A stretch of 64,000 nt of DNA, taken from the NCBI GenBank assembly GCA_024679065.1, contig JAGIQG010000009.1, positions 99,882,001 through 99,946,000 of the forward strand. The letters run 5' to 3'. The notes beneath the pieces are model-generated. The model was given only the letters and a program-made list of their open reading frames with translations. It was not told where the DNA came from and did not search any database. Position 1 is the first letter of the stretch. Each line of letters begins with the position of its first letter. Source of the stretch: Sphyrna mokarran. Its lineage: Eukaryota. Shown here piece after piece: positions 5,826 to 64,000 of this stretch. The translations under genes and the position numbers were made by a program.

Positions 5826-7008
5826 CTGCGGAATCTGGAGTTTTCAAGTCCAACTTTTAGACCCATTGTTAGAAGCCCCCATATGCACTCTGCCTGAAAA
5901 ACAAAGCGATTCTGAATCGCTGCAGAATCATCTAGGCGGCGCTTATCACATGGTAAATACTATCAGAGCCTTCAGCTGTGCATTTACAGGAAAGTAAACA
6001 TAACCGACCCCCCTGCCACGTCGTTCCCGGGCCTGATAAGACCTGGACCCCAAAGAATTTCCCCCACCAACATAACACAACTGTCCACCTTAACAAACAC
6101 AACTCCCCCAACGTCACCAGCCACTACCCAAATTGATCGCGGCCTTTTTCGCCTTCCTCCTATCTCTTGCACGCAGAGTGGCAGTGATCTCTCACATCAG
6201 ACAGCCATCTGACCCGCCTCCCTCTCCCTACCAGAGAACGATCTGACCCTCCCCCCTTCCCGCCTACCAGAAGACTATCAGGCCCACATTCCTTCTTCCC
6301 CACCAGATAGCGATCCGACTGGCCTCCCTACCCACACGAGAGAGCAATATGATTGACTGCTGCACCTCCATCCAGAGAGCCATCTGACCCGCCTCCCTGC
6401 TGCTACCAGAGAGCGGTCTGACTTGCCCTTCTGCCAACCAGAAGGCCATTTGACCCACGTTCCTTCTCCCTCATCAGAAAGCCATCTGACATACTTCTCT
6501 CCCTACACAAAAGAGCGATATGGCTTGCATGCTGCACCTCCAACCAAAGAAACATCTGACCGCTTTCCTCTGTCCCTTACCTCAGAGCCATCTGACCCGC
6601 CTCCCTCCTCGTCCCCACCGGAGAGCATTCTGTCCAACCTCTCTGTCACCCCCACCAGAGAGTGATCTGACCCGCGTACTCCACCACCCCAACCCACCGC
6701 CGCTCCCAAATTCCAAACCACCGATCTGAGTCAGAGAGCCGTGGCAGGCTCTGAAATTACCTCCTCATAAGATGAACCACCCGAATCACACCTTTGCAGA
6801 CCATGTCTGTTTCGTTCAGAGTTTGGATGGGCGATCGCCGTGTTGAATGGGGGAAATGACAATATCTATGGGTACCTAGCCCATTAGTTCCCGATCGCGG
6901 CAATTTTAGGTCCTTGATAAAGGGGGAAAGGACAAGGAGGCAGTCGTGGATTGCTTTAATTGTCTAACACCTAAGAACCGGCACAAATCGATGGTCAAAT
7001 CAAGCCCC
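5826..7008. mobile_element. Non-autonomous TIR element, copy 2 (left end truncated)
   Basis: Shares 'gcctgaaaa..agcga.tctga', 'agagagccg..gctctgaa..tacctc' and 'ccttgataaaggggg' with copy 1; ends ggtcaaatcaagcccc. Confidence 0.6.
6170..6740 (+). repeat. Degenerate ~35-bp minisatellite (agag(c/a)(c/g)atctgacccgcctccc..cc)
   Basis: Roughly 15 recurrences of 'atctgac'-like cores at about 35-40 bp spacing, inside TIR element copy 2. Confidence 0.85.
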
Positions 7009-9309: not shown

Positions 9310-10168
9310 TTATAGAACATAGAACATTACAGCGCAGTACAGGCCCTTCGGCCCTCGATGTTGCGCCGGCCAGGGGACCCTCTAGCCTAAACTATTCCAA
9401 TATCATCCATATGCCTATCCACCGGCCATTTGAATGCCCCCAAAGTAGGCGAGTCCACAACTGCTGCAGGCAGGGCATTCCACGCCCTCACCACCCTCTG
9501 TGTAAAGAATCTGCCTCTGACATCCGTCCTATTACTACCACCTCTTAATTTAAAATTATGTCCCCTGCTGTTGGTCATCACCATCCGAGGAAAAGGGCTC
9601 TCACTATCCACCCTATCCAGTCCTTTGATCATCTTATACGCCTCAATTAGATCACCGCATAACCTTCTCTCTAATGAAAATAACCTCAGGTCCCTCAGCC
9701 TTTCCTCATAAGGCCTTCTCACCATACCAGGCAACATCCTGGTAAACCTCCTCTGCACCCTTTCCAATGCTTCCACATCTTTCTTATAATGCGGCGACCA
9801 GAACTGTACGCAATACTCCAAGTGCGGCCGCACCAGAGTTTTGTACAGTTGTAACATAACCTCACGGCTCCTAAATTCAATCCCTCTACCAATAAAAGCT
9901 AACACACCGTACGCCTTCTTAACAACTTTATCAACCTGGGTGCCAACTTTCAAAGAGCTATGTACCTGTACCCCAAGATCCCTCTGCTCGACAACACTAT
10001 TAAGGGTCCTTCCATTAGCCCTATATTTCATATGCCTGTTATTCCTACCAAAGTGAATCACCTCACACTTATCCGTATTGAATTCCATTTGCCACCTCAC
10101 GGCCCAGCTCTGCAAACTATCTATGTCCCTCTGCAAACTGTAACATCCATCCTCGCTGTCTACAACAA
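9310..10168 (-). mobile_element. Young 5'-truncated CR1 (HER1-like) LINE
   Basis: Open 249-aa ORF2 C-terminus plus 3'UTR 'agggccgaagggcctgtactgcgctgtaatgttctatgttct'. Confidence 0.95.
9387..10136 (-). pseudogene. CR1 ORF2 C-terminal part (post-RT-core/thumb region), open but truncated
   Basis: WQMEFNTDKCEVIHFG, DLGVQV, LYKTLVRPHLEYCVQFWSP, LERVQRRFTRM, RGHNFKL, FFTQRVVRAWNALP are canonical CR1 ORF2 motifs. Confidence 0.95.
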
Positions 10169-21249: not shown

Positions 21250-22215
21250 GAGAACATAGAAAACATACAGGAAAACTATAGCACAAACAAGCCCTTCAGC
21301 CCACAAGTTGTGCCGAGCATGTCCGTACCTACTAGGCTTACTTATCCTCTATCGTACAATGCCCCATGTATTATCCAAAAGTCTCTTAAAAGACCCTATT
21401 GAATCCGCCTCCACCACCACTGCCGGCAGCCGATTCCACGCACCCACCATCCTCGGAGTGAAAAAAAAAATGCTCCTGACATCTCCTCTGTACCTATTCA
21501 CCAGCACACTAAACTTGTGTCTTCTTGTGACAGCCATTTCAGTCTTGGGAAAAAAACCACAGATAATCCAAAAGATCAATACCTCTCAACATCTTATACA
21601 CCTTTATCAGGTCATATTCTATCTCTCATCATTCTTCGTCTATCCACGGAGACAAGACCAAGCTCTTTCAACCTATCCTCATAAGGCAAACCATCTAATT
21701 CAGGCAACATCCTAGTAAATCTCCTCCGCACCCTTTCTATGACTTCCACATCCTTCCTGTAATGAGGCAACCAGAAGTTAGCACAGTATTCCACTTGGGG
21801 TCTGACCAGGGTCTTATACAGCTGCAACATTATCTCCCGACTCCTAAACTCAATTCCTCGATTGATGAAGGCTGGTACACCATATGCTTTCTTAACCAAA
21901 TCCTCTACCTGCGAAGCTGATTTGAGCTTCCTATCACTCTGGACCCCAAGATCCTCCTGATCTTCCACACTTCCAAGAGTCTTCCTCTTAATATTATATT
22001 CCTTCATCCCATTTGACCTGCCAAAATGAATCACCACACACTTAACTGGATTGAAGTCACCCTGCCACTTCTCAGCCCAGTCTTGCATCCTATCTATGTC
22101 TCGTTGCAACTTTGGACATCCCTTGCTCTGGCCACGACGCCTCCAAGCATTGTGTCATCGGCAAACTTCTCAACCCATTCCTTCACTTCCTCATCCAGGT
22201 CATTTATAAAAAAAA
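21250..22215 (-). mobile_element. Younger 5'-truncated CR1 LINE
   Basis: ORF 21612-22109 (LYKTLVRPQVEYC..FW.PHYRKD); 'tgtgtcatcggcaaacttct' = EKFADDT; 3' tail ttctatgttct at ~21252. Confidence 0.93.
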
Positions 22216-29431: not shown

Positions 29432-30384
29432 ATGAACCAGCAGAACTTTGCAACTATTGTCCCGGCAAATTTACTCTAAAAATGTTAAGAGTTCCAGTCA
29501 GGAGTTTTGGGTGCAAACCTCGGCATGAGATGGAACATGTGGACTGCCTATGTTCGAGATATTTTAAGCTTTCAAATTTTAATCAATTTCAGGGCAATGC
29601 ATGCGTCATCCGCTCGAAAAATTGAGTTGTAGTACCTATTCTTAAACCATAGATGACACGTTGAATTACAGTTTTGATGGATAGTGACATGATATTGCAT
29701 GATCATGCAATATCATGTCATGATATTGCAATATCATGTGATATAATCACATGATATTGCATCTCCTGAGAACTTCATATTACCAGCTTCGGATTTGGAA
29801 TGAGAAGTTGTTGACGATTGCCTCTGACATTTACACATCCTTTCCCCATTTCCCTTATCTGTGAGATATGCTTCAGAACAGCATATCCCACTGTCATTCA
29901 GAATTGTTGTTCCCATGAATGTTAGTAGTAATATTCGGGCTGGCAGCATTCTACCTCAGATTGTGTATAATTCTGTTCGCCTCCTCTGCCCATGATTGTT
30001 TTCCTCTCATTCGTGTCATTTGCCAATTTTCTTCCGCGTGGACTGAATATTCTGTTGAGTGGGACTCATCCAAGCATCGTTGATCATCAGCTGATGTGCC
30101 CCTTTGTCCTTCAGGCAGAAAGAAATTTGTGCTTCATCCTACTGGGTGCAGACTTGCTGTTTGCACAATTATGCATATCATCGTTTGTGTGAAATCTGTA
30201 ATAGCTGTTTGACGCATGCATTGCCCTGAAATGTATTAAACTTTGAAAGCTTAAAATATCTCGAACATAGGCAGTCCACATGTTCCATCTCATGCCGAGG
30301 TTTGCACCCCAAACTCCTGACTGGAACTCTACCATTTTTAGAATAAATTTCCCGCGACCATAGTTGCAAAGTTCTACTGGTCAT
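29432..30384. repeat. Long inverted repeat (arms 29432-29608 and 30210-30384, 601-bp spacer)
   Basis: Manual alignment shows about 12 differences in ~177 bp, with a perfectly matching central stretch of ~65 bp. Confidence 0.95.
29685..29761. repeat. Array of overlapping palindromes built from catgatattgca
   Basis: Five alternating-orientation copies of the 12-mer; perfect 36-bp palindrome at 29685-29720. Confidence 0.95.
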
Positions 30385-39680: not shown

Positions 39681-40005
39681 CTACATATGCTAAAGATAAC
39701 AGTGTGTTTTATAGCGAAGTACCTGGAAATACGTACAGATCTACAGAGGGGACGGGCTGCACATAGATTTGCAGGGGAAAAGGCCAATACATAAACATCA
39801 TGAATTATCCTATGTCATGGAAATTTGAACGTACAACATCATTCATGGAAGTATGCAATAAATCGTTTGGTTGAACTACTAAACCTTAAACACTTCGTCC
39901 TGTATTCCTTCTCTTAATGTAGAGATGCCGGCGTTGGACTGGGGTAAACCCAGTAAGAGGTCTGACAACACAGATTTTAAATCCAACCGATTTATTTGAT
40001 TGTAA

Positions 40006-40045
40006 ACTTGCTAGCTTTCGGCCTTTGTGCCTTCGTCAGGCAAAT
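40006..40045 (-). ncRNA. Minimal type I hammerhead ribozyme (PLE-associated)
   Basis: AUUUGC-CUGACGA-A-GGC-acaaag-GCC-GAAA-GC-UA^GCAAGU: intact core, 6-bp stem I, 3-bp stem II, palindromic AGCU in place of stem III. Confidence 0.85.
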
Positions 40046-40261
40046 GAGGTTGTCTGGTTTGCAATAGCACACATATCAGCACAGACAGTTTACAGATTGC
40101 CGATTAGGATGCAAATCCTTACACCTAACCTGCTATTCAAGTCTTAAAGTGGCTAACAATGTTAGTGGAAGGAGCACTGAGCACACGTTAGAGAGATGTG
40201 TATTGTCTCCAGACGGCACACTAAGTGAGGTTTTTTTCCTAACCCAGGCAAGTCATGGGGG

Positions 40262-40770
40262 TTACACATAGTGTGACATCAAGCCAAGATCCCTGTTAAG
40301 ACCGTCTTTATGTGTGCAGAACTTGGCTATCAGTCTCTGCTCAGTGGCTCTGCGCTGTCGTGTGTCGTGAAGGCCCCCGTGAAAAACGTTTACCCGAAGG
40401 TCAGAGACCGAATGCCCGTGACTGCTGAAGTGTTCGCCCATAGGAAGGGAACTGTTTTGCCTGGTGATTGTCGAGCGATGTTCATTCACTCGCTGTCGTA
40501 GTGCCTGCATGGTCTCCCCAATGTACCATGCTTCGGGACATCCTTTTTTGCAACGTATTAGGTAGACAACGTTGGCCGAGTTGCAAGAGTATGTACCGTG
40601 TACCTGGTGAATGGTATTCTCACGTTTGATGATGTCATCCATATCGATGATGCGGCATGTCTTGCAGAGGTTGCTGTGGCAGGGTTGTGTGGTATTGTGC
40701 TCACTGTTCTCCGGAAGGTTGGGTAGTTTGCTGCGAACAATGATCTGTTTGAGGTTGTGCGGTTGTCTGA
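40262..40770 (-). pseudogene. PLE GIY-YIG endonuclease domain (C-terminus of PLE ORF)
   Basis: CHSNLCKTC, NVVYLIRCKKGC..WYIGET, R..EH, E.RLI, GLNRD; frameshift upstream in the poly-C tract. Confidence 0.9.
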
Positions 40771-41134
40771 AGGCAAGACATGGGGGGGTGGGGTGGGGAT
40801 GGCACTAGCGAGATGTTCATCATCATCAATGATATGCTGAATACTCCGGAGAAGATGTCGTAGCTTCTCCGCTCCTGAGAAGTACTGGACAACAAAGGGT
40901 ACTCTGTCCACCGTGTCCCGTTTTCGTCTTTTGAGGTCAGTGCCGTCACCCCCCTTCCCCCCTCCACTTCTTGCCTTCAGATTAGCACAAAGATTACACA
41001 GGATATATATACCTATGTTTTTAGCATGCTGACAATTGGATACAATGTAATTTATTTTCTGCAATCATTCATAATTTTAGATATGTTTTATGACTTGTTA
41101 TATGATCACACTTAAGTGTAATAATAGTTTCTAT

Positions 41135-54399: not shown

Positions 54400-57300
54400 A
54401 GCAAGCATTGTATACAGTTGCAGCCTTTATAAATTTAGTTATCATGGCTGGAAGGGAAACAAGGAAGTCTGTGCGCAATCCTTATAGCAGAATGCATAGT
54501 GGATGGTATGGTTAGAAAAAGTGTTCACAACAACTGAAGCATCTTGATGAAGGAAGGGAACCAAGAAAGGGATCACTAGGCAGCCCATAAGAAACATACA
54601 GGTAATTCGGGTGTCCCTGAAGTATCCAGGCACAAATCGATTTTCAAATTTGTGGCTGATTAATGTATTGGTTCATTCAGTGAGTATCGAGAGAGCCAAA
54701 CTGTAGGCAACAGAAGCAGCCTATCCAGCTAGGACAAATGAGGAAAGGAAGAGAAAGAAGTATTAGGGACGTCTATATTCAGTAGGTGCTTGCATGGTAG
54801 TCAACGTAACTCCAGGGTCGTGTTTGGGTCCTTGATGCCAGTGTCTTGAGTATCACTGAACGACAGCAAGGAATCTTGAGCAGGTGAGAGTGATATGGCA
54901 CATTTTCTTATGGATGATAAAAATAGAAATAAGAATGAGTTCTTGCATCAGGACTTCAGATTGTTAGGCAAAAGACTAAAAAAACAGATATCTTATGTTG
55001 CAAGATTGGGATTACGCCTAATAACACGAGTAAGTGTACAAAGAAATAAAGGAGCAGCACAGACGGAAGCCTGGCTTGGGGCCGAGAGGTCCACGGTTTT
55101 CGGCTTCCAGATCTCCAGCAACCTGTCCTGGTCCTCCCATGCCGACAGCAAGGTTAAGAAAGCCCACCAAGGCCTCTTCTTTCTCAGAAAACTAAGGATA
55201 TTTGGCATGTCAGCAATGGCTGTCATCAACATTTACAGATGCACCATAAAAACCATTATTTCTGGTTGCATCATAATTAGGTATGGCTCCTGCTCTGCCC
55301 AAGACTGCAATAAACTACAGAAGGTCGTGAAAGTAGCCCAATCCATCACCGAAACCAGCCTCCCATCCATTGACTATGTCTACAATTCAGCAATGCAGCC
55401 AGCATATTTAAGGATTCCACGCGCCCTGGATATTTTCTCTTCCACTTTCTTTCTTCGGGAAATAGATTCAAATTCTGAGGTCACATATCAACTCACTCAA
55501 GAATAACTTCTTCTCTGCTGCCGTCAGACATTTGCATGGAAATAACTTGCATTAGAGAGAATTGAAATCTTGAAGGGGACATCAAATGACGCTGCATATA
55601 GACTTTAGGGACAAATATGCTGCAGTCATACTGCTAGTTTTTCATTGCATAGCCCCATATTAATTGGGAAATTGAGGAACAATTCGTGGAGGCATGTAAT
55701 AACAAGAGGATTTGATGTTAAGTGGTTTCAATTTTCCTTACATTAATTGGGATAGCAGAGTGTTAAGGACTTGGGTGGAGTGTTTTCGTGAATTGCGCAC
55801 CTAAAAAGCTTTACTGTTAATCTGCCACAGATCCAATGAGGGATTGACAGCATTGGACCTCATTCTGGAGAATGAAGCTGAAAAGGTTGGTGAGGCAGCG
55901 GACGGAAATCATTTTCGCAGTAGCGACCAAAATATGTTGCGATTTTAGCACATTATATCAAAAAAGCAGACAAGTTGCTAAACAATATGTTTGAATTGCG
56001 GAGAACAGATTTTGTAATGCAATGCAATATCAGCCCAAGGTAGATTCGGAACAGCTCCTTATGGGGAAATCTGTAGAACAAAAGTGGTGGTGGGGCACGG
56101 GGAGGAAAGCGTTATGGAGGAAGGGAGAGCGTTCAAAAATGGAAATAGAGAGTACCGCATGTTCCCTCTCGGGTGATTGAAAAGAATAATGAGTTCACAG
56201 AACTATTGATGAGCAGAGGTATTCAGGAATCGGTAAGAAGGAAAGTGAACCTCTGTAGCAGATGCAGGTGAGCAAATAAGAGGGGGCACTAGAGTAATAC
56301 AGGCAGAACAGTGTGATAGTAAAGGAAACAATTACAAAAAGAAAGTAGAGATATGGAATTCTCGGTTGATAAAGTTAGGGAAAATAAAAATATGCTTTAT
56401 ACGCATTTCGATGAGAGGAATATAACAAGGGAGAGAATTGCATCCAAGAAATTCAAAGCAGCTAAGTTTTGACAGGAGGCACAGCACATTGGAAAAGTGT
56501 TGAACAAACACGTCACGTTCGTATTCAACCAACAAGATGAAAATGAAGTATGGAAAATAGGCATAGGGACTGCGAGATTCTTATTGGTCGGCTTAAAGCG
56601 GACAAATCTTCAGGCACAGATCAATTTTCTCCCAGCGGGCTGTGAACTGCAATATAAGACTGGGGCTCTGTTTCAAATTTGGAGTTCTTTCCAGGATACA
56701 GTGGAAGTGCCAGAATCCGAGAGAATGCATCTCTGATATTTAATAAGAGTTCTAAATATAAACTGATTTCGGATGAGCTCGCTTTATGTTAGTTGCAGAA
56801 ACACTATTGGACCATATTGTAAAGGAGAGAAGATGTCTCCAATTTGAGGGCTAGTGTTGACCAGGGATAGTTAGTACGGCATTGTCAGAGGGAGGCCATG
56901 CTTAGTAAATTTGATTGTCTTTTTTTTAAACACCCCGGGGTGTTTGTCGATGGATCACTGAGGACAGAAAAGCCTGTAAATTGCGTGTTTGAAAATGTAT
57001 ATGGGACAATTGTCTTCAAATACGGAGGCGTAAATTAAATAAAAAAGTGACCATTTGGAGTTGAATGAAACTTTTATGTGACTACAGTTGGAGATTTGTG
57101 TACAGTTCTGGTGGCCCCATTGATTTCACAGGAGGGCGGGGAGGCGTGAATGCAAATTCGATTCTTCGATTCACCAGTATATTGCCTGGCATGGCACATT
57201 TAGGTCTTGAAGACATGGAGATGCACTGAGTTGCATTACTTTCTGGACAGAAGAAGACTGGGGACATGCTTGATCAGGATGTACAACATTATGAGAACAG

Positions 57301-61100: not shown

Positions 61101-61506
61101 GACACAGAATAGTAGGGAGACGGAAGAAAATGCTGGGGACAGCATAGAAGCTAAACAGAACACATTAAATAGTAAAGGCAGAGGCAATAATCCTAGTACC
61201 AGACAGGTCAGGCAAAAGAAGAGCAGAAAGCAAATGCAGTTAAGATTAAACGGCATTCATTTCAATGCAAGAGAGCTGGCTTGCAAGACAGAAAACTCAG
61301 GGCATGAATGGGCGCAATATTATGGCTGTTACTGAAAAATGGCAAAGGGAGGCTGTTACTGAAATATTGCTAAGGGAGCGTCAGGACTGGCAGCTCAATG
61401 ATCCGGGGGGCGGGGGGGGGGGGGGGTACAGAGGCCATTTGAAATATAAACTCAGTAAGAATCCGGCAACACCATTTTTAAATCCAACCGATTTATTTGA
61501 TAGTAA

Positions 61507-61545
61507 ATCTGCGAGCTTTCGACTTTTTGTCTTCATCAGGCAAAT
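61507..61545 (-). ncRNA. Minimal type I hammerhead ribozyme (PLE-associated)
   Basis: AUUUGC-CUGAUGA-A-GAC-aaaaa-GUC-GAAA-GC-UC^GCAGAU; stems covary with copy 1. Confidence 0.87.
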
Positions 61546-61748
61546 ATAGTGTTCTGGTCTGCAATAGCACACATATCAGCACAGACAGTCACAGATTGCT
61601 GATTAGAATGTGAATCCTTACATCTAACCTGCTATTCAAGTCTTAAAGTGGCTAACGATCTGAGGGAAGCATTGGTTAGAGAAATGTGTATTTTCTCCAG
61701 ACAGCGCAGTAAGTGAGGTTTTTTGCTAACCTAGGCAAGTCATGGGGG

Positions 61749-62339
61749 TTACAGATAGTGTGACACGAAGCCAAGATCCCTGTTAAGACCGTCCTTATGA
61801 GTGCGGAACTTGGCTATCAGTCTCTGCTCAGCGACTCTGCGCTGTCGTGTGTCATGAAGGCCCCCTTGAAGAACATTTACCCGAACGTCGGAGGCCGAAT
61901 GCCCGTGACTGCTGAAGTGTTCGCCTACAGGAAGGGAACTATTTTGCCTGGTGATTGTTGAGTGATGTTCATTCATCCGCTGTCGTAGTGTCTGCATGGT
62001 CTCCCCAATGTACCATGCTTCGGGACATCCTTTCTTGCAACGTATTCGGTAGACAACGTTGGCCGAGTTGCAAGAGTATGTACCGTGTACCTGGTGAATG
62101 GTATTCTCACGTTTGATGATGTCGTCCATGTCTATGATCCGGCATGTCTTGCAGAGGTTGCTGTGACAGGGTTGTGTGGTATTGTGCTCACTGTTCTCCG
62201 GAAGGTTGGGTAGTTTGCTGCGAACAATGATCTGTTTGAGGTTGTGCGGTTGTCTGAAAATAAGAAGTGGGGGGGGGTGTGGGGAAGGCTCTAGCGAGAT
62301 GTCCATCATCATCCTCCTCAGAAGACGAACACGGGACAC
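61749..62339 (-). CDS. Open reading frame for the PLE linker + GIY-YIG endonuclease domain (5' end created by the inversion junction)
   Basis: 196 aa without stops: CHSNLCKTC, NVVYRIRCKKGCPEAWYIGET, RMNEH, EQRLI, GLNRD. Expression unknown. Confidence 0.75.
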   Translation of the reverse strand: MSRVRLLRRMMMDISLEPSPHPPPLLIFRQPHNLKQIIVRSKLPNLPENSEHNTTQPCHSNLCKTCRIIDMDDIIKRENTIHQVHGTYSCNSANVVYRIRCKKGCPEAWYIGETMQTLRQRMNEHHSTITRQNSSLPVGEHFSSHGHSASDVRVNVLQGGLHDTRQRRVAEQRLIAKFRTHKDGLNRDLGFVSHYL

Positions 62340-64000
62340 GGTGGACAGAGTACCCTTTTTTGTCCAGTACTTCCCCAGAGCGGAGAAGCTACGACATCTT
62401 CTCCAGAGTCTTCAACATATCATTGATATGTTGGCTAGGTTGGCTAGGGGGTGGGGATGGCTAGGGCCATCACCCCCCCCCCCCCCCCCCCCGCACCACT
62501 TCTTGCTTTCAGACAACCGCACAACCTCAAACAGATCATTGTTCGCAGATTTACTATCAAATAAACCTGTTGGATTTAAAATTGGTGTTGCCAGATTCTT
62601 ACTGAGTTTACCCTAGTCCAACACCGGCATCTCTACGTTTGAAAGATAACACAGGAGATAGGAGAAGTGGGTTTGCTACATTTTTCATTTGGGCAAACAT
62701 CTGAGCAGTACTGAGAGGGGATATATCTAAGTGTTCGCCCACTGAGTCTATATAGGGAGAACTGAGAAATAAAGAGGGAGAGGTCACGTTCATAGATTGT
62801 TCTATAGGCCTGTAACTAGTGAGCAAAAAAGTTGAGGAACAGATATATATTACAGATAACGCCAAGAAAACTAGGATGGTAATCGTAGGGAATTTTAACT
62901 TTCCCAGCACTGATTGGGACAGACATTGTATTGAAGGCTTGGATGGAGGAAACGAAATGTTGAATGCATTCAGGAGCAATGTTTCATTCAGTATGTGATT
63001 GGTCCGACTAGAGAAGGGGCAAAATGTGACCTCCTCTTGGGCCATAAGGAAGCTGGGTGACAGAAGCGGTATTGAGGGATAACTCTTGGAACAATGACCA
63101 TAATCCCATTAATTCTAAGAAAGTTATAGAGAACAATAAGTCTGACCCAAAAATCAAAATTCTGAACTCGGAAAAGGCCCATTTTGACGATATCAGGCAA
63201 TGACATTCAACAAGTAATTGGGGATTCCACTGGCAAGCAAAGGGACGTGTGGTGAGTGAGAGACTTTCAAACTTGTGTCAATCAGATTAAGGGTAAATGC
63301 ACTTCCCTTAGAATGAAGGGCAACATTGGTAGAAGAACGGGACCTGACTGACTCGGGTGTTGAGTCCTGGTTAAGAAGAAGAGAGAGGATCATGGTATGC
63401 AGTTGGTATCAAATAGATTCCTTAACAAGTATAGAGGGTGCAGAAGGAGAGTTAAGAGAAAAATTGGAAAGGCAAAAAGGGGACACGAGATTCCTTTAGT
63501 AGATAAGGCAAAGTAGAATCCAAAGAAATTAAACAAATACATAAATGGCAAAATAGTAACTAGAGACTGAATATGACCTTTAAAGGATTTAGTGAGATCC
63601 TAAATGAATATTTCTCATCCGTATTTACTGTTGAGAAAAGTATGGATGATAGGGAACTTGGGGAAATAAATAGTGATGTCCTGAAAAGTGTACAAATAAC
63701 AAAGAAGGAGGTGCTGAAAGTCTTAAAGCGCACCAAGATAAATAAATCACAGGGACCTGATGAAGTGGTCCGAGGACATTGTGAGAAGCTAGGGTTGAAA
63801 ATGAGAGTTCCCCTAACAGAGATATTTGGATCATCGACAGTCACAGGTGGGATGCCTGAAGAATAGAGGGTGACAAATTTTATGCCTCTGTTTAGAAAGG
63901 GCTGCAGGGAAAAGCAACAACAGGTCGGTGAGGCTCACATTTGTAGGGGGGAAATTATTTGAAGGTTTTCTGAGAGACAGGATCTACAGCATCTAGAGGG

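What the first reader, a model, noticed from the sequence alone, without database searches (positions are those of the whole stretch)
40006..40045. Hammerhead ribozyme in PLE copy 1, supported by covariation with copy 2
About 217 nt downstream of the GIY-YIG stop lies a complete core (CUGAnGA...GAAA..UH). Between the two copies the stem II middle pair switches G-C to A-U, the stem I G.U wobble changes position, and only permissive core positions vary (C/U at position 7, A/C at position 17). Minimal hammerheads with a palindromic stem III that cleave as dimers are established for Penelope-like elements. Predicted cut lies between 40012 and 40011.
Basis: partly seen in the sequence, partly recalled or inferred. 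Interest (0 to 1): 0.7.

Follow-up and report, generated by a model that had tools for sequence, protein, structure and literature searches.

The report
Minimal hammerhead of a Penelope retroelement
This is an intact copy of the small hammerhead RNA motif already known from Penelope-type jumping genes, sitting in a cut-off copy of a family with tens of thousands of copies in what is likely a shark genome; it is predicted to cut RNA only when two copies pair, so this lone copy is likely idle.

Summary
Observation confirmed. Window 40045-40006 (minus strand) holds a complete minimal type I hammerhead: core CUGACGA plus one extra A, stem II of 3 bp, GAA, palindrome AGCU, A17, predicted cut 40012/40011. 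It lies 217 nt after the GIY-YIG stop of a 1,020-bp, 5'-truncated Neptune-type Penelope-like element. The genome has 10,759 exact matches to one core pattern (control 1) and 39,762 to the downstream anchor. Across 95 copies, stem II pairs 2 and 3 and stem I pair 2 change on both sides. This is a new member of a known kind (Cervera and De la Pena 2014), and the scan has noted such motifs in other genomes. Side results: inserted copies do not pile up at the cut site, so templates were mostly uncut RNA; and a sub-lineage with G8A in the catalytic core was copied about 700 times. Cleavage itself was not tested.

The parts
40006..40045 (-). Minimal type I hammerhead, copy 1: stem I 40045-40040 with 40011-40006; core 40039-40033 and 40019-40017; extra A 40032; stem II 40031-40029 with 40022-40020; palindrome AGCU 40016-40013; A17 40012
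40011..40012 (-). Predicted cleavage site, after A17 (not tested)
   Evidence: hammerhead numbering applied; inference
39917..40936 (-). 5'-truncated Penelope-like element, copy 1 (1,020 bp): end of the ORF, pLTR, long 3' end; about 88-89% identical to longer copies
40262..40804 (-). Open frame of 180 aa: CX4CxxC linker and GIY-YIG endonuclease (Pfam PF01541, E 1e-4); no RT
39982..40005 (-). Conserved 24-nt stretch just after the ribozyme (39,762 exact matches of the family form; copy 1 has one change)
39917..39950 (-). 34-nt tail between the two preferred 3' ends (39951 and 39917); the long end stops just before the ORF start codon of tandem copies
40949..40981 (+). 33-nt inverted piece of the element's own ORF at the 5' junction of copy 1
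61507..61545 (-). Minimal hammerhead, copy 2 (another subfamily: stem II GAC/GUC, U7, C17)
61447..62313 (-). Copy 2, short-ended arm with GIY-YIG frame; 89% identical to copy 1
62316..62639 (+). Inverted arm of copy 2: an ORF piece (62316-62548) joined through a 6-nt microhomology that spans the cut site to a long-ended pLTR piece lacking the ribozyme core

Best explanation
The motif is a minimal type I hammerhead in the terminal repeat (pLTR) of a very abundant Penelope-like retroelement, likely of the Neptune clade, and it is predicted to cut RNA after position 17 only when two copies pair through their AGCU palindromes, so this lone, truncated copy is likely idle. Shown: the anatomy; the place 217 nt after the ORF stop and, in tandem copies, 123-130 nt (C3) before the next ORF start; covariation and core conservation across subfamilies; no RT in this copy. 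Inferred: in a tandem element the two pLTR copies on one RNA form a double hammerhead in which each core cuts the partner's site; cleavage is slow and probably helped by the element's own protein, as reported for the anole element; selection acted on the master elements, while copy 1 has drifted neutrally (16 of 344 positions differ from the majority of its relatives) and kept its core by chance.
For: Anatomy and position. 10,759 pattern matches against 1 control. In 95 copies whose stem II interior was left free: pair 10.2-11.2 paired in 95 of 95 (A-U 42, G-C 35, G-U 18, A-C 0), pair 10.3-11.3 C-G 65 and G-C 15, stem I pair 2 G-C 55 and A-U 26, each above all 2000 shuffles. On 49 hand-picked distinct haplotypes: 92% of cells paired against 84% shuffled and 17-40% for slid partners. 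In 41 copies found by the downstream anchor, not by the core: 7 of 525 non-CpG core letters deviate, against 312 of 3818 in flanks and 99 of 406 in the stem II/loop II interior. Position 17 is U, C or A in 92 of 95. U7, a permitted change, outnumbers G8A 18,601 to 8,202 although CpG decay would make them equally. Extra A, G10.1-C11.1 and palindrome match the published consensus (PMC4209133).
Against: No cleavage was measured. The shuffle tests ignore relatedness; on a tree of flanking sequence (79 rows, 6 starred branches) only 1-2 independent pairs were available and no sign test reached significance. Within copy 1's own subfamily the core is not better kept than the flanks (8 of 442 against 190 of 6589, p 0.23). 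Stem I pairs 3-6 do not covary, and RNAalifold predicts only stem II. The double-hammerhead fold of copy 1 (-17.3 kcal/mol) is less stable than an alternative dimer (-25.0), and in 130-190 nt of context a rival hairpin replaces stems I and II. The most uniform copies often have G10.1.U11.1 (13 of 19) and only 2-3 pairs in stem I. A G8A sub-lineage was amplified. No excess of insert ends at the cut site.
Confidence: 0.8

Rival explanations
1. The fold is kept mainly as a clasp or protein-binding structure that pairs the two ends of the element's RNA; cleavage is rare or dispensable, and in some lineages lost.
For: G8A in 22 of the 29 listed copies of one haplotype, against 1 with the mirror change C7U (binomial p 6e-6); other CpGs in those copies mostly intact, and both arms carry G8A in 3 of 4 two-armed insertions. 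No pile-up of 5' ends at the cut site. In the anole element, core mutants did not affect insertion in vitro and no reads ended at the cut site (PMC11167929).
Against: Non-CpG core letters stay nearly invariant across subfamilies while loops turn over; G17, which blocks cleavage (recalled), is rare (3 of 95); a G8A copy could still be cut by an intact partner in a dimer (inference).
Confidence: 0.14
2. Copy 1 is an active or co-opted ribozyme in a host transcript, pairing with copy 2 (same strand, 21.5 kb away, same palindrome) or with other copies in trans.
For: All core positions intact and six possible stem I pairs in both window copies; tens of thousands of potential partners.
Against: Copy 1 differs from its relatives at about 5% of sites throughout, with no sign of extra constraint; single motifs showed no cleavage and dimers little in vitro (PMC4209133); no RNA run holds the stretch at more than 0.09 of its words. 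Whether a host gene spans the locus was not tested.
Confidence: 0.05
3. Chance resemblance to a hammerhead core.
For: A loose core pattern occurs about 3 times per shuffled window; Rfam finds nothing.
Against: 10,759 matches against 1 control, at a fixed place in the element, with compensatory changes.
Confidence: 0.01

Closest known systems
Minimal hammerheads (min-HHR) of metazoan Penelope-like elements, including fish Xena, Poseidon and Neptune (Cervera and De la Pena 2014, PMC4209133; parts 1-2 of 4 read)
   Same: Type I, no stem III loop, palindromic 15.2-16.2, extra nucleotide between 9 and 10.1, G10.1-C11.1, place in the pLTR, thousands of mostly single copies, many sequence families per genome, pairs on opposite strands.
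   Different: Stem II is only 3 bp here (7-8 bp in the Schistosoma families described). Copy number is at least 10,759 for one pattern, against about 4,000 and 9,000 reported for coelacanth and Xenopus. No cartilaginous fish is named in the text read; the supplement was not read.
Poseidon element PAc of the green anole (Frangieh et al. 2024, PMC11167929; parts 1-2 of 4 read)
   Same: Hammerhead in the pLTR; two preferred 3' ends about 34 nt apart (the tail) downstream of the ribozyme; inserts made from uncut RNA.
   Different: In PAc the ORF starts in stem II and the tail lies 111-118 nt and more into the ORF; here the ribozyme and the tail both lie before the start codon. This element has the Neptune-type CX4CxxC linker that Penelope/Poseidon lack.
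Neptune clade of EN+ Penelope-like elements (PMC8557442; passages read)
   Same: One ORF with RT then GIY-YIG, CX2-5CxxC linker, CCHH-type residues, pLTRs, inverted 5'-truncated arms, 30-40 bp tail.
   Different: Clade assigned from motifs only; no RT tree with reference elements was built, and Nematis (reduced linker) was not excluded by test.
Non-LTR retrozymes (bioRxiv 10.64898/2026.07.22.740005; part 1 of 5 and passages read)
   Same: Type I hammerhead, shared origin with PLE pLTRs, present in one cartilaginous fish.
   Different: Retrozymes are non-coding tandem repeats with a ribozyme in each unit; this copy is a single truncated piece of the coding element.

Membership tests
PLE minimal type I hammerhead | Core CUGANGA ... 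GAAA ... UH in order, stem I open | tested here: met
PLE minimal type I hammerhead | Extra nucleotide between 9 and 10.1; G10.1-C11.1 | tested here: met
   A at 40032, G40031-C40020; feature list from PMC4209133
PLE minimal type I hammerhead | Palindromic 15.1-16.1 with no loop III | tested here: met
   AGCU at 40016-40013; 93-100% per column in 41 copies not selected on it (1.0, 1.0, 0.95, 1.0)
PLE minimal type I hammerhead | Compensatory changes in stems I and II across sequence families | tested here: met
   Stem II pairs 2-3 and stem I pair 2; not stem I pairs 3-6; the tree-aware test lacked power
PLE minimal type I hammerhead | Located in the pLTR of a PLE, both after the ORF and before the next ORF | tested here: met
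   217 nt after the stop; intact motif before the ORF start in 19 of 29 loci, G8A form in 1 more
PLE minimal type I hammerhead | Self-cleavage as a dimer | not testable with these tools
   needs an assay; no RNA reads usable
Rfam hammerhead families | Reaches a curated covariance-model score | tested here: not met
   no match; the motif lacks helix III and is shorter than canonical forms
EN+ Penelope-like element | Single ORF with RT then GIY-YIG | tested here: met
   874- and 945-aa frames in other copies with RVT_1 and, for one, GIY-YIG; copy 1 holds only the endonuclease end
EN+ Penelope-like element | Inverted 5'-truncated arms and a 30-40 bp optional tail | tested here: met
   3' ends peak at 39917 (31) and 39951 (17) of 95 alignment ends; inverted arms in many loci
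Neptune clade | CX2-5CxxC linker before the endonuclease | tested here: met
   CX4CxxC; definition from PMC8557442
Neptune clade | Placement in an RT phylogeny with reference elements | not tested
   no named reference sequences were fetched
Non-LTR retrozyme | Non-coding tandem units, each with a hammerhead | tested here: not met
   single motif attached to GIY-YIG coding sequence

The most novel reading that the evidence does not exclude
This family is a natural mutational scan of the Penelope hammerhead in a living genome. The core is kept over long lineages, yet a master element with G8A at the general-acid position made roughly 700 new insertions, and inserts do not start at the cut site. 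The ribozyme would then not make the template for copying; it would act as a brake or timer on the element's RNA, which a lineage can drop and still spread.
Probability: 0.3. Interest if true: 0.55.

Novelty: new member of a known kind. Interest (0 to 1): 0.27.

Why it matters
The motif itself is expected in such elements and changes nothing in what is known. Its value is as material: what the hammerhead does for Penelope-like elements is still open (PMC8557442 says its function is unclear), and a genome with tens of thousands of copies in many subfamilies records which changes a working element tolerated. The G8A sub-lineage and the lack of insert ends at the cut site are genomic support for the in vitro result that uncut RNA is the template.

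Tried and rejected
Rfam scans gave no hammerhead match. The search for RNA runs gave four contig sets holding at most 0.09 of the words; none was laid, so expression and cut ends are untested. A cleavage footprint was sought: a pattern for inserts starting at the cut site gave 661 matches; by my reading 17 of 30 loci are true junctions, the rest a subfamily with a 2-nt insertion or small deletions, so about 375, against about 360 expected from the local break rate (16 junctions over 31 positions in 82 anchor hits, after I set aside 6 rows that were intact or internally deleted). This estimate is rough and microhomology blurs junctions. Two of 24 hits in ORF-start loci began at or next to the cut site, but only 1 of 63 hits in 62 follow-up loci ran on into the ORF, and that one is a small deletion; rejected. 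The tree-aware covariation test was underpowered. Stem I wobble shift as covariation: rejected. G8A as mere CpG decay: fits most subfamilies, rejected for one haplotype. Lunse et al. (RNA Biol 14:1499) was not held; I saw only its title and a review's summary. Searches for papers on G8A in hammerheads found nothing relevant, so its inactivating effect is recalled and inferred.

Full report
Observation. The minus strand at 40045-40006 carries every element of a minimal type I hammerhead: a 6-nt stem I strand, CUGACGA, one extra A, a 3-bp stem II with a 6-nt loop, GAA, the palindrome AGCU in place of helix III, A17 and the second stem I strand. The predicted cut is between 40012 and 40011. The GIY-YIG frame (Pfam PF01541) stops at 40264-40262, 217 nt before the motif. 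Rfam does not detect the motif, and a loose core pattern is only mildly above chance in the window.

The element. Copy 1 spans 40936-39917, lacks the RT and has a short inverted piece at its 5' junction. Other copies in the genome carry frames of up to 945 aa with RT and GIY-YIG domains; their closest named relatives are shark proteins at 83-88% identity, so the host is likely a cartilaginous fish. The CX4CxxC linker points to the Neptune clade (no tree built). Insert 3' ends peak at two places 34 nt apart, 39951 and 39917 (17 and 31 of 95 alignment ends), the known PLE tail. In 19 of 29 loci found through the ORF start, an intact motif lies 123-130 nt (C3) before the start codon, and the long end stops just before that codon. 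So the motif belongs to the pLTR, which is both the 3' end of one unit and the leader of the next.

Family evidence. One core pattern with a free 10-nt interior has 10,759 exact matches, against 1 for the reversed control; the 24-nt stretch after the ribozyme has 39,762. I fetched 90 loci covering most of the first 100 listed matches (all from the start of contig C1) and recovered 95 motifs. Pair 10.2-11.2 is paired in 95 of 95 with no A-C; pair 10.3-11.3 switches between C-G (65) and G-C (15); stem I pair 2 between G-C (55) and A-U (26); pairs 3-6 of stem I show no excess over shuffles. The pair-count tool on 49 hand-picked distinct haplotypes agrees; RNAalifold predicts stem II only. These counts ignore relatedness; a tree of the flanks gave 7-10 changes of state per pair but too few supported branches for a test. 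For core conservation I used copies found by the downstream anchor (82 hits, 41 kept that still had upstream flank): non-CpG core letters deviate in 7 of 525 cells, flanks in 312 of 3818, the stem II and loop II interior in 99 of 406. Within copy 1's subfamily, found by an upstream query, core and flank do not differ (8 of 442, 190 of 6589), as expected if selection acts on master elements and not on inserted copies.

The U at 40042 that completes stem I pair 3 is C in 30 of 34 relatives; it sits in a CpG and is likely a later deamination. The wobble shift is a one-sided A/G change opposite U. Folding gives stems I and II as the best fold of the 40-mer (-9.6 kcal/mol), but the double-hammerhead form (-17.3) is less stable than another dimer (-25.0), and longer context favours a rival hairpin. 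That fits the low activity reported for these motifs.

Mechanism. From PMC4209133 (parts 1-2 of 4 read): single min-HHRs did not cleave and dimers cleaved weakly. From PMC11167929 (parts 1-2 of 4 read): the anole element's hammerhead cleaved only with protein present, G8C and C3G abolished cleavage, core mutants did not affect insertion, and reverse transcription started at two sites that match the tail. I infer the same here: on a tandem transcript the two pLTR motifs pair by AGCU and each core cuts the partner's site. Copy 1 has no RT and its nearest same-strand partner is 21.5 kb away, so it is likely idle. Transcription of the locus was not testable.

Two side results. First, no cleavage footprint: inserts starting at the cut site number about 375, near the roughly 360 expected from the local junction rate, and they do not run into the ORF; junctions cluster instead 3-31 nt before C3 (25 of 82), perhaps near the transcription start. 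Second, core variants: CGA 21,299, UGA 18,601, CAA (G8A) 8,202 matches, patterns that also catch a related family. For one stem II haplotype (3,333 matches), the first 100 listed, counted by hand, give among C11.1 copies 22 G8A, 6 intact and 1 C7U; among U11.1 copies 52 G7, 13 intact, 3 C7U, 2 G8A and 1 other. The 22:1 asymmetry cannot be CpG decay (p 6e-6); other CpGs in these copies are mostly intact (23 of 27, 21 of 27), 3 of 4 two-armed insertions have G8A in both arms, and one G8A motif precedes an ORF. So a template with G8A was copied about 700 times (22% of 3,333). G8 supplies the general acid (PMC6155905, passage); that C3.A8 is inactive is recalled, not shown, and an intact partner could still cut such a copy.

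Novelty. The motif type, its place and its abundance in fish are published. My searches found no paper describing it in a shark Penelope element: the one hit for 'shark' referred to the ribozyme's shape, and the 2026 preprint reports retrozymes in one cartilaginous fish. The library lacks most subscription papers, Lunse et al. was not held, the supplement of PMC4209133 was not read and bioRxiv supplements are closed; any of these may list shark motifs or core variants. Other papers seen: PMC6765202 and PMC8557442 as passages; the rest as search listings only. The scan's own notes record the same kind of motif in other genomes, none near this window. Verdict: real, correctly read, a new member of a known kind; interest 0.27.

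Noticed in passing
G000 genome-wide; L325, L447, L452, L264, L445-L460: A sub-lineage with G8A in the ribozyme core, about 700 exact-pattern copies, fixed in the template rather than caused by CpG decay.
   Followed up: yes
L259-L286; listing: The most uniform subfamilies carry G10.1.U11.1 (53 of 53 listed G7 copies of one haplotype) and often only 2-3 stem I pairs: a weakened ribozyme in what look like the youngest lineages.
   Followed up: partly
L227-L326: 5' junctions of inserts cluster 3-31 nt before C3 (25 of 82 anchor hits) and are sparse further upstream; may mark the transcription start. Many inserts are short fold-back pairs.
   Followed up: partly
window 62316-62639: The inverted arm of copy 2 switches from ORF sequence to pLTR sequence through a 6-nt microhomology that spans the cut site.
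   Followed up: partly
L300, L405: Fold-back junctions that fall on or next to the AGCU palindrome or the cut site.
   Followed up: no
listings, e.g. L332, L333, L343: A second abundant family with the same core but another stem II (4-5 bp, GGAGC/GCUCC type); not characterised.
   Followed up: no
window 29436-30381: Long inverted repeat (arms of about 170 nt, 601 nt apart), like a non-autonomous DNA transposon.
   Followed up: no
window 6198-6643; 9728-9938 and 21701-21911; 54880-55506: A degenerate tandem repeat of 63-106 nt; a second dispersed repeat; a frame with Pfam ALKBH8_N, typical of LINE C-termini (recalled).
   Followed up: no
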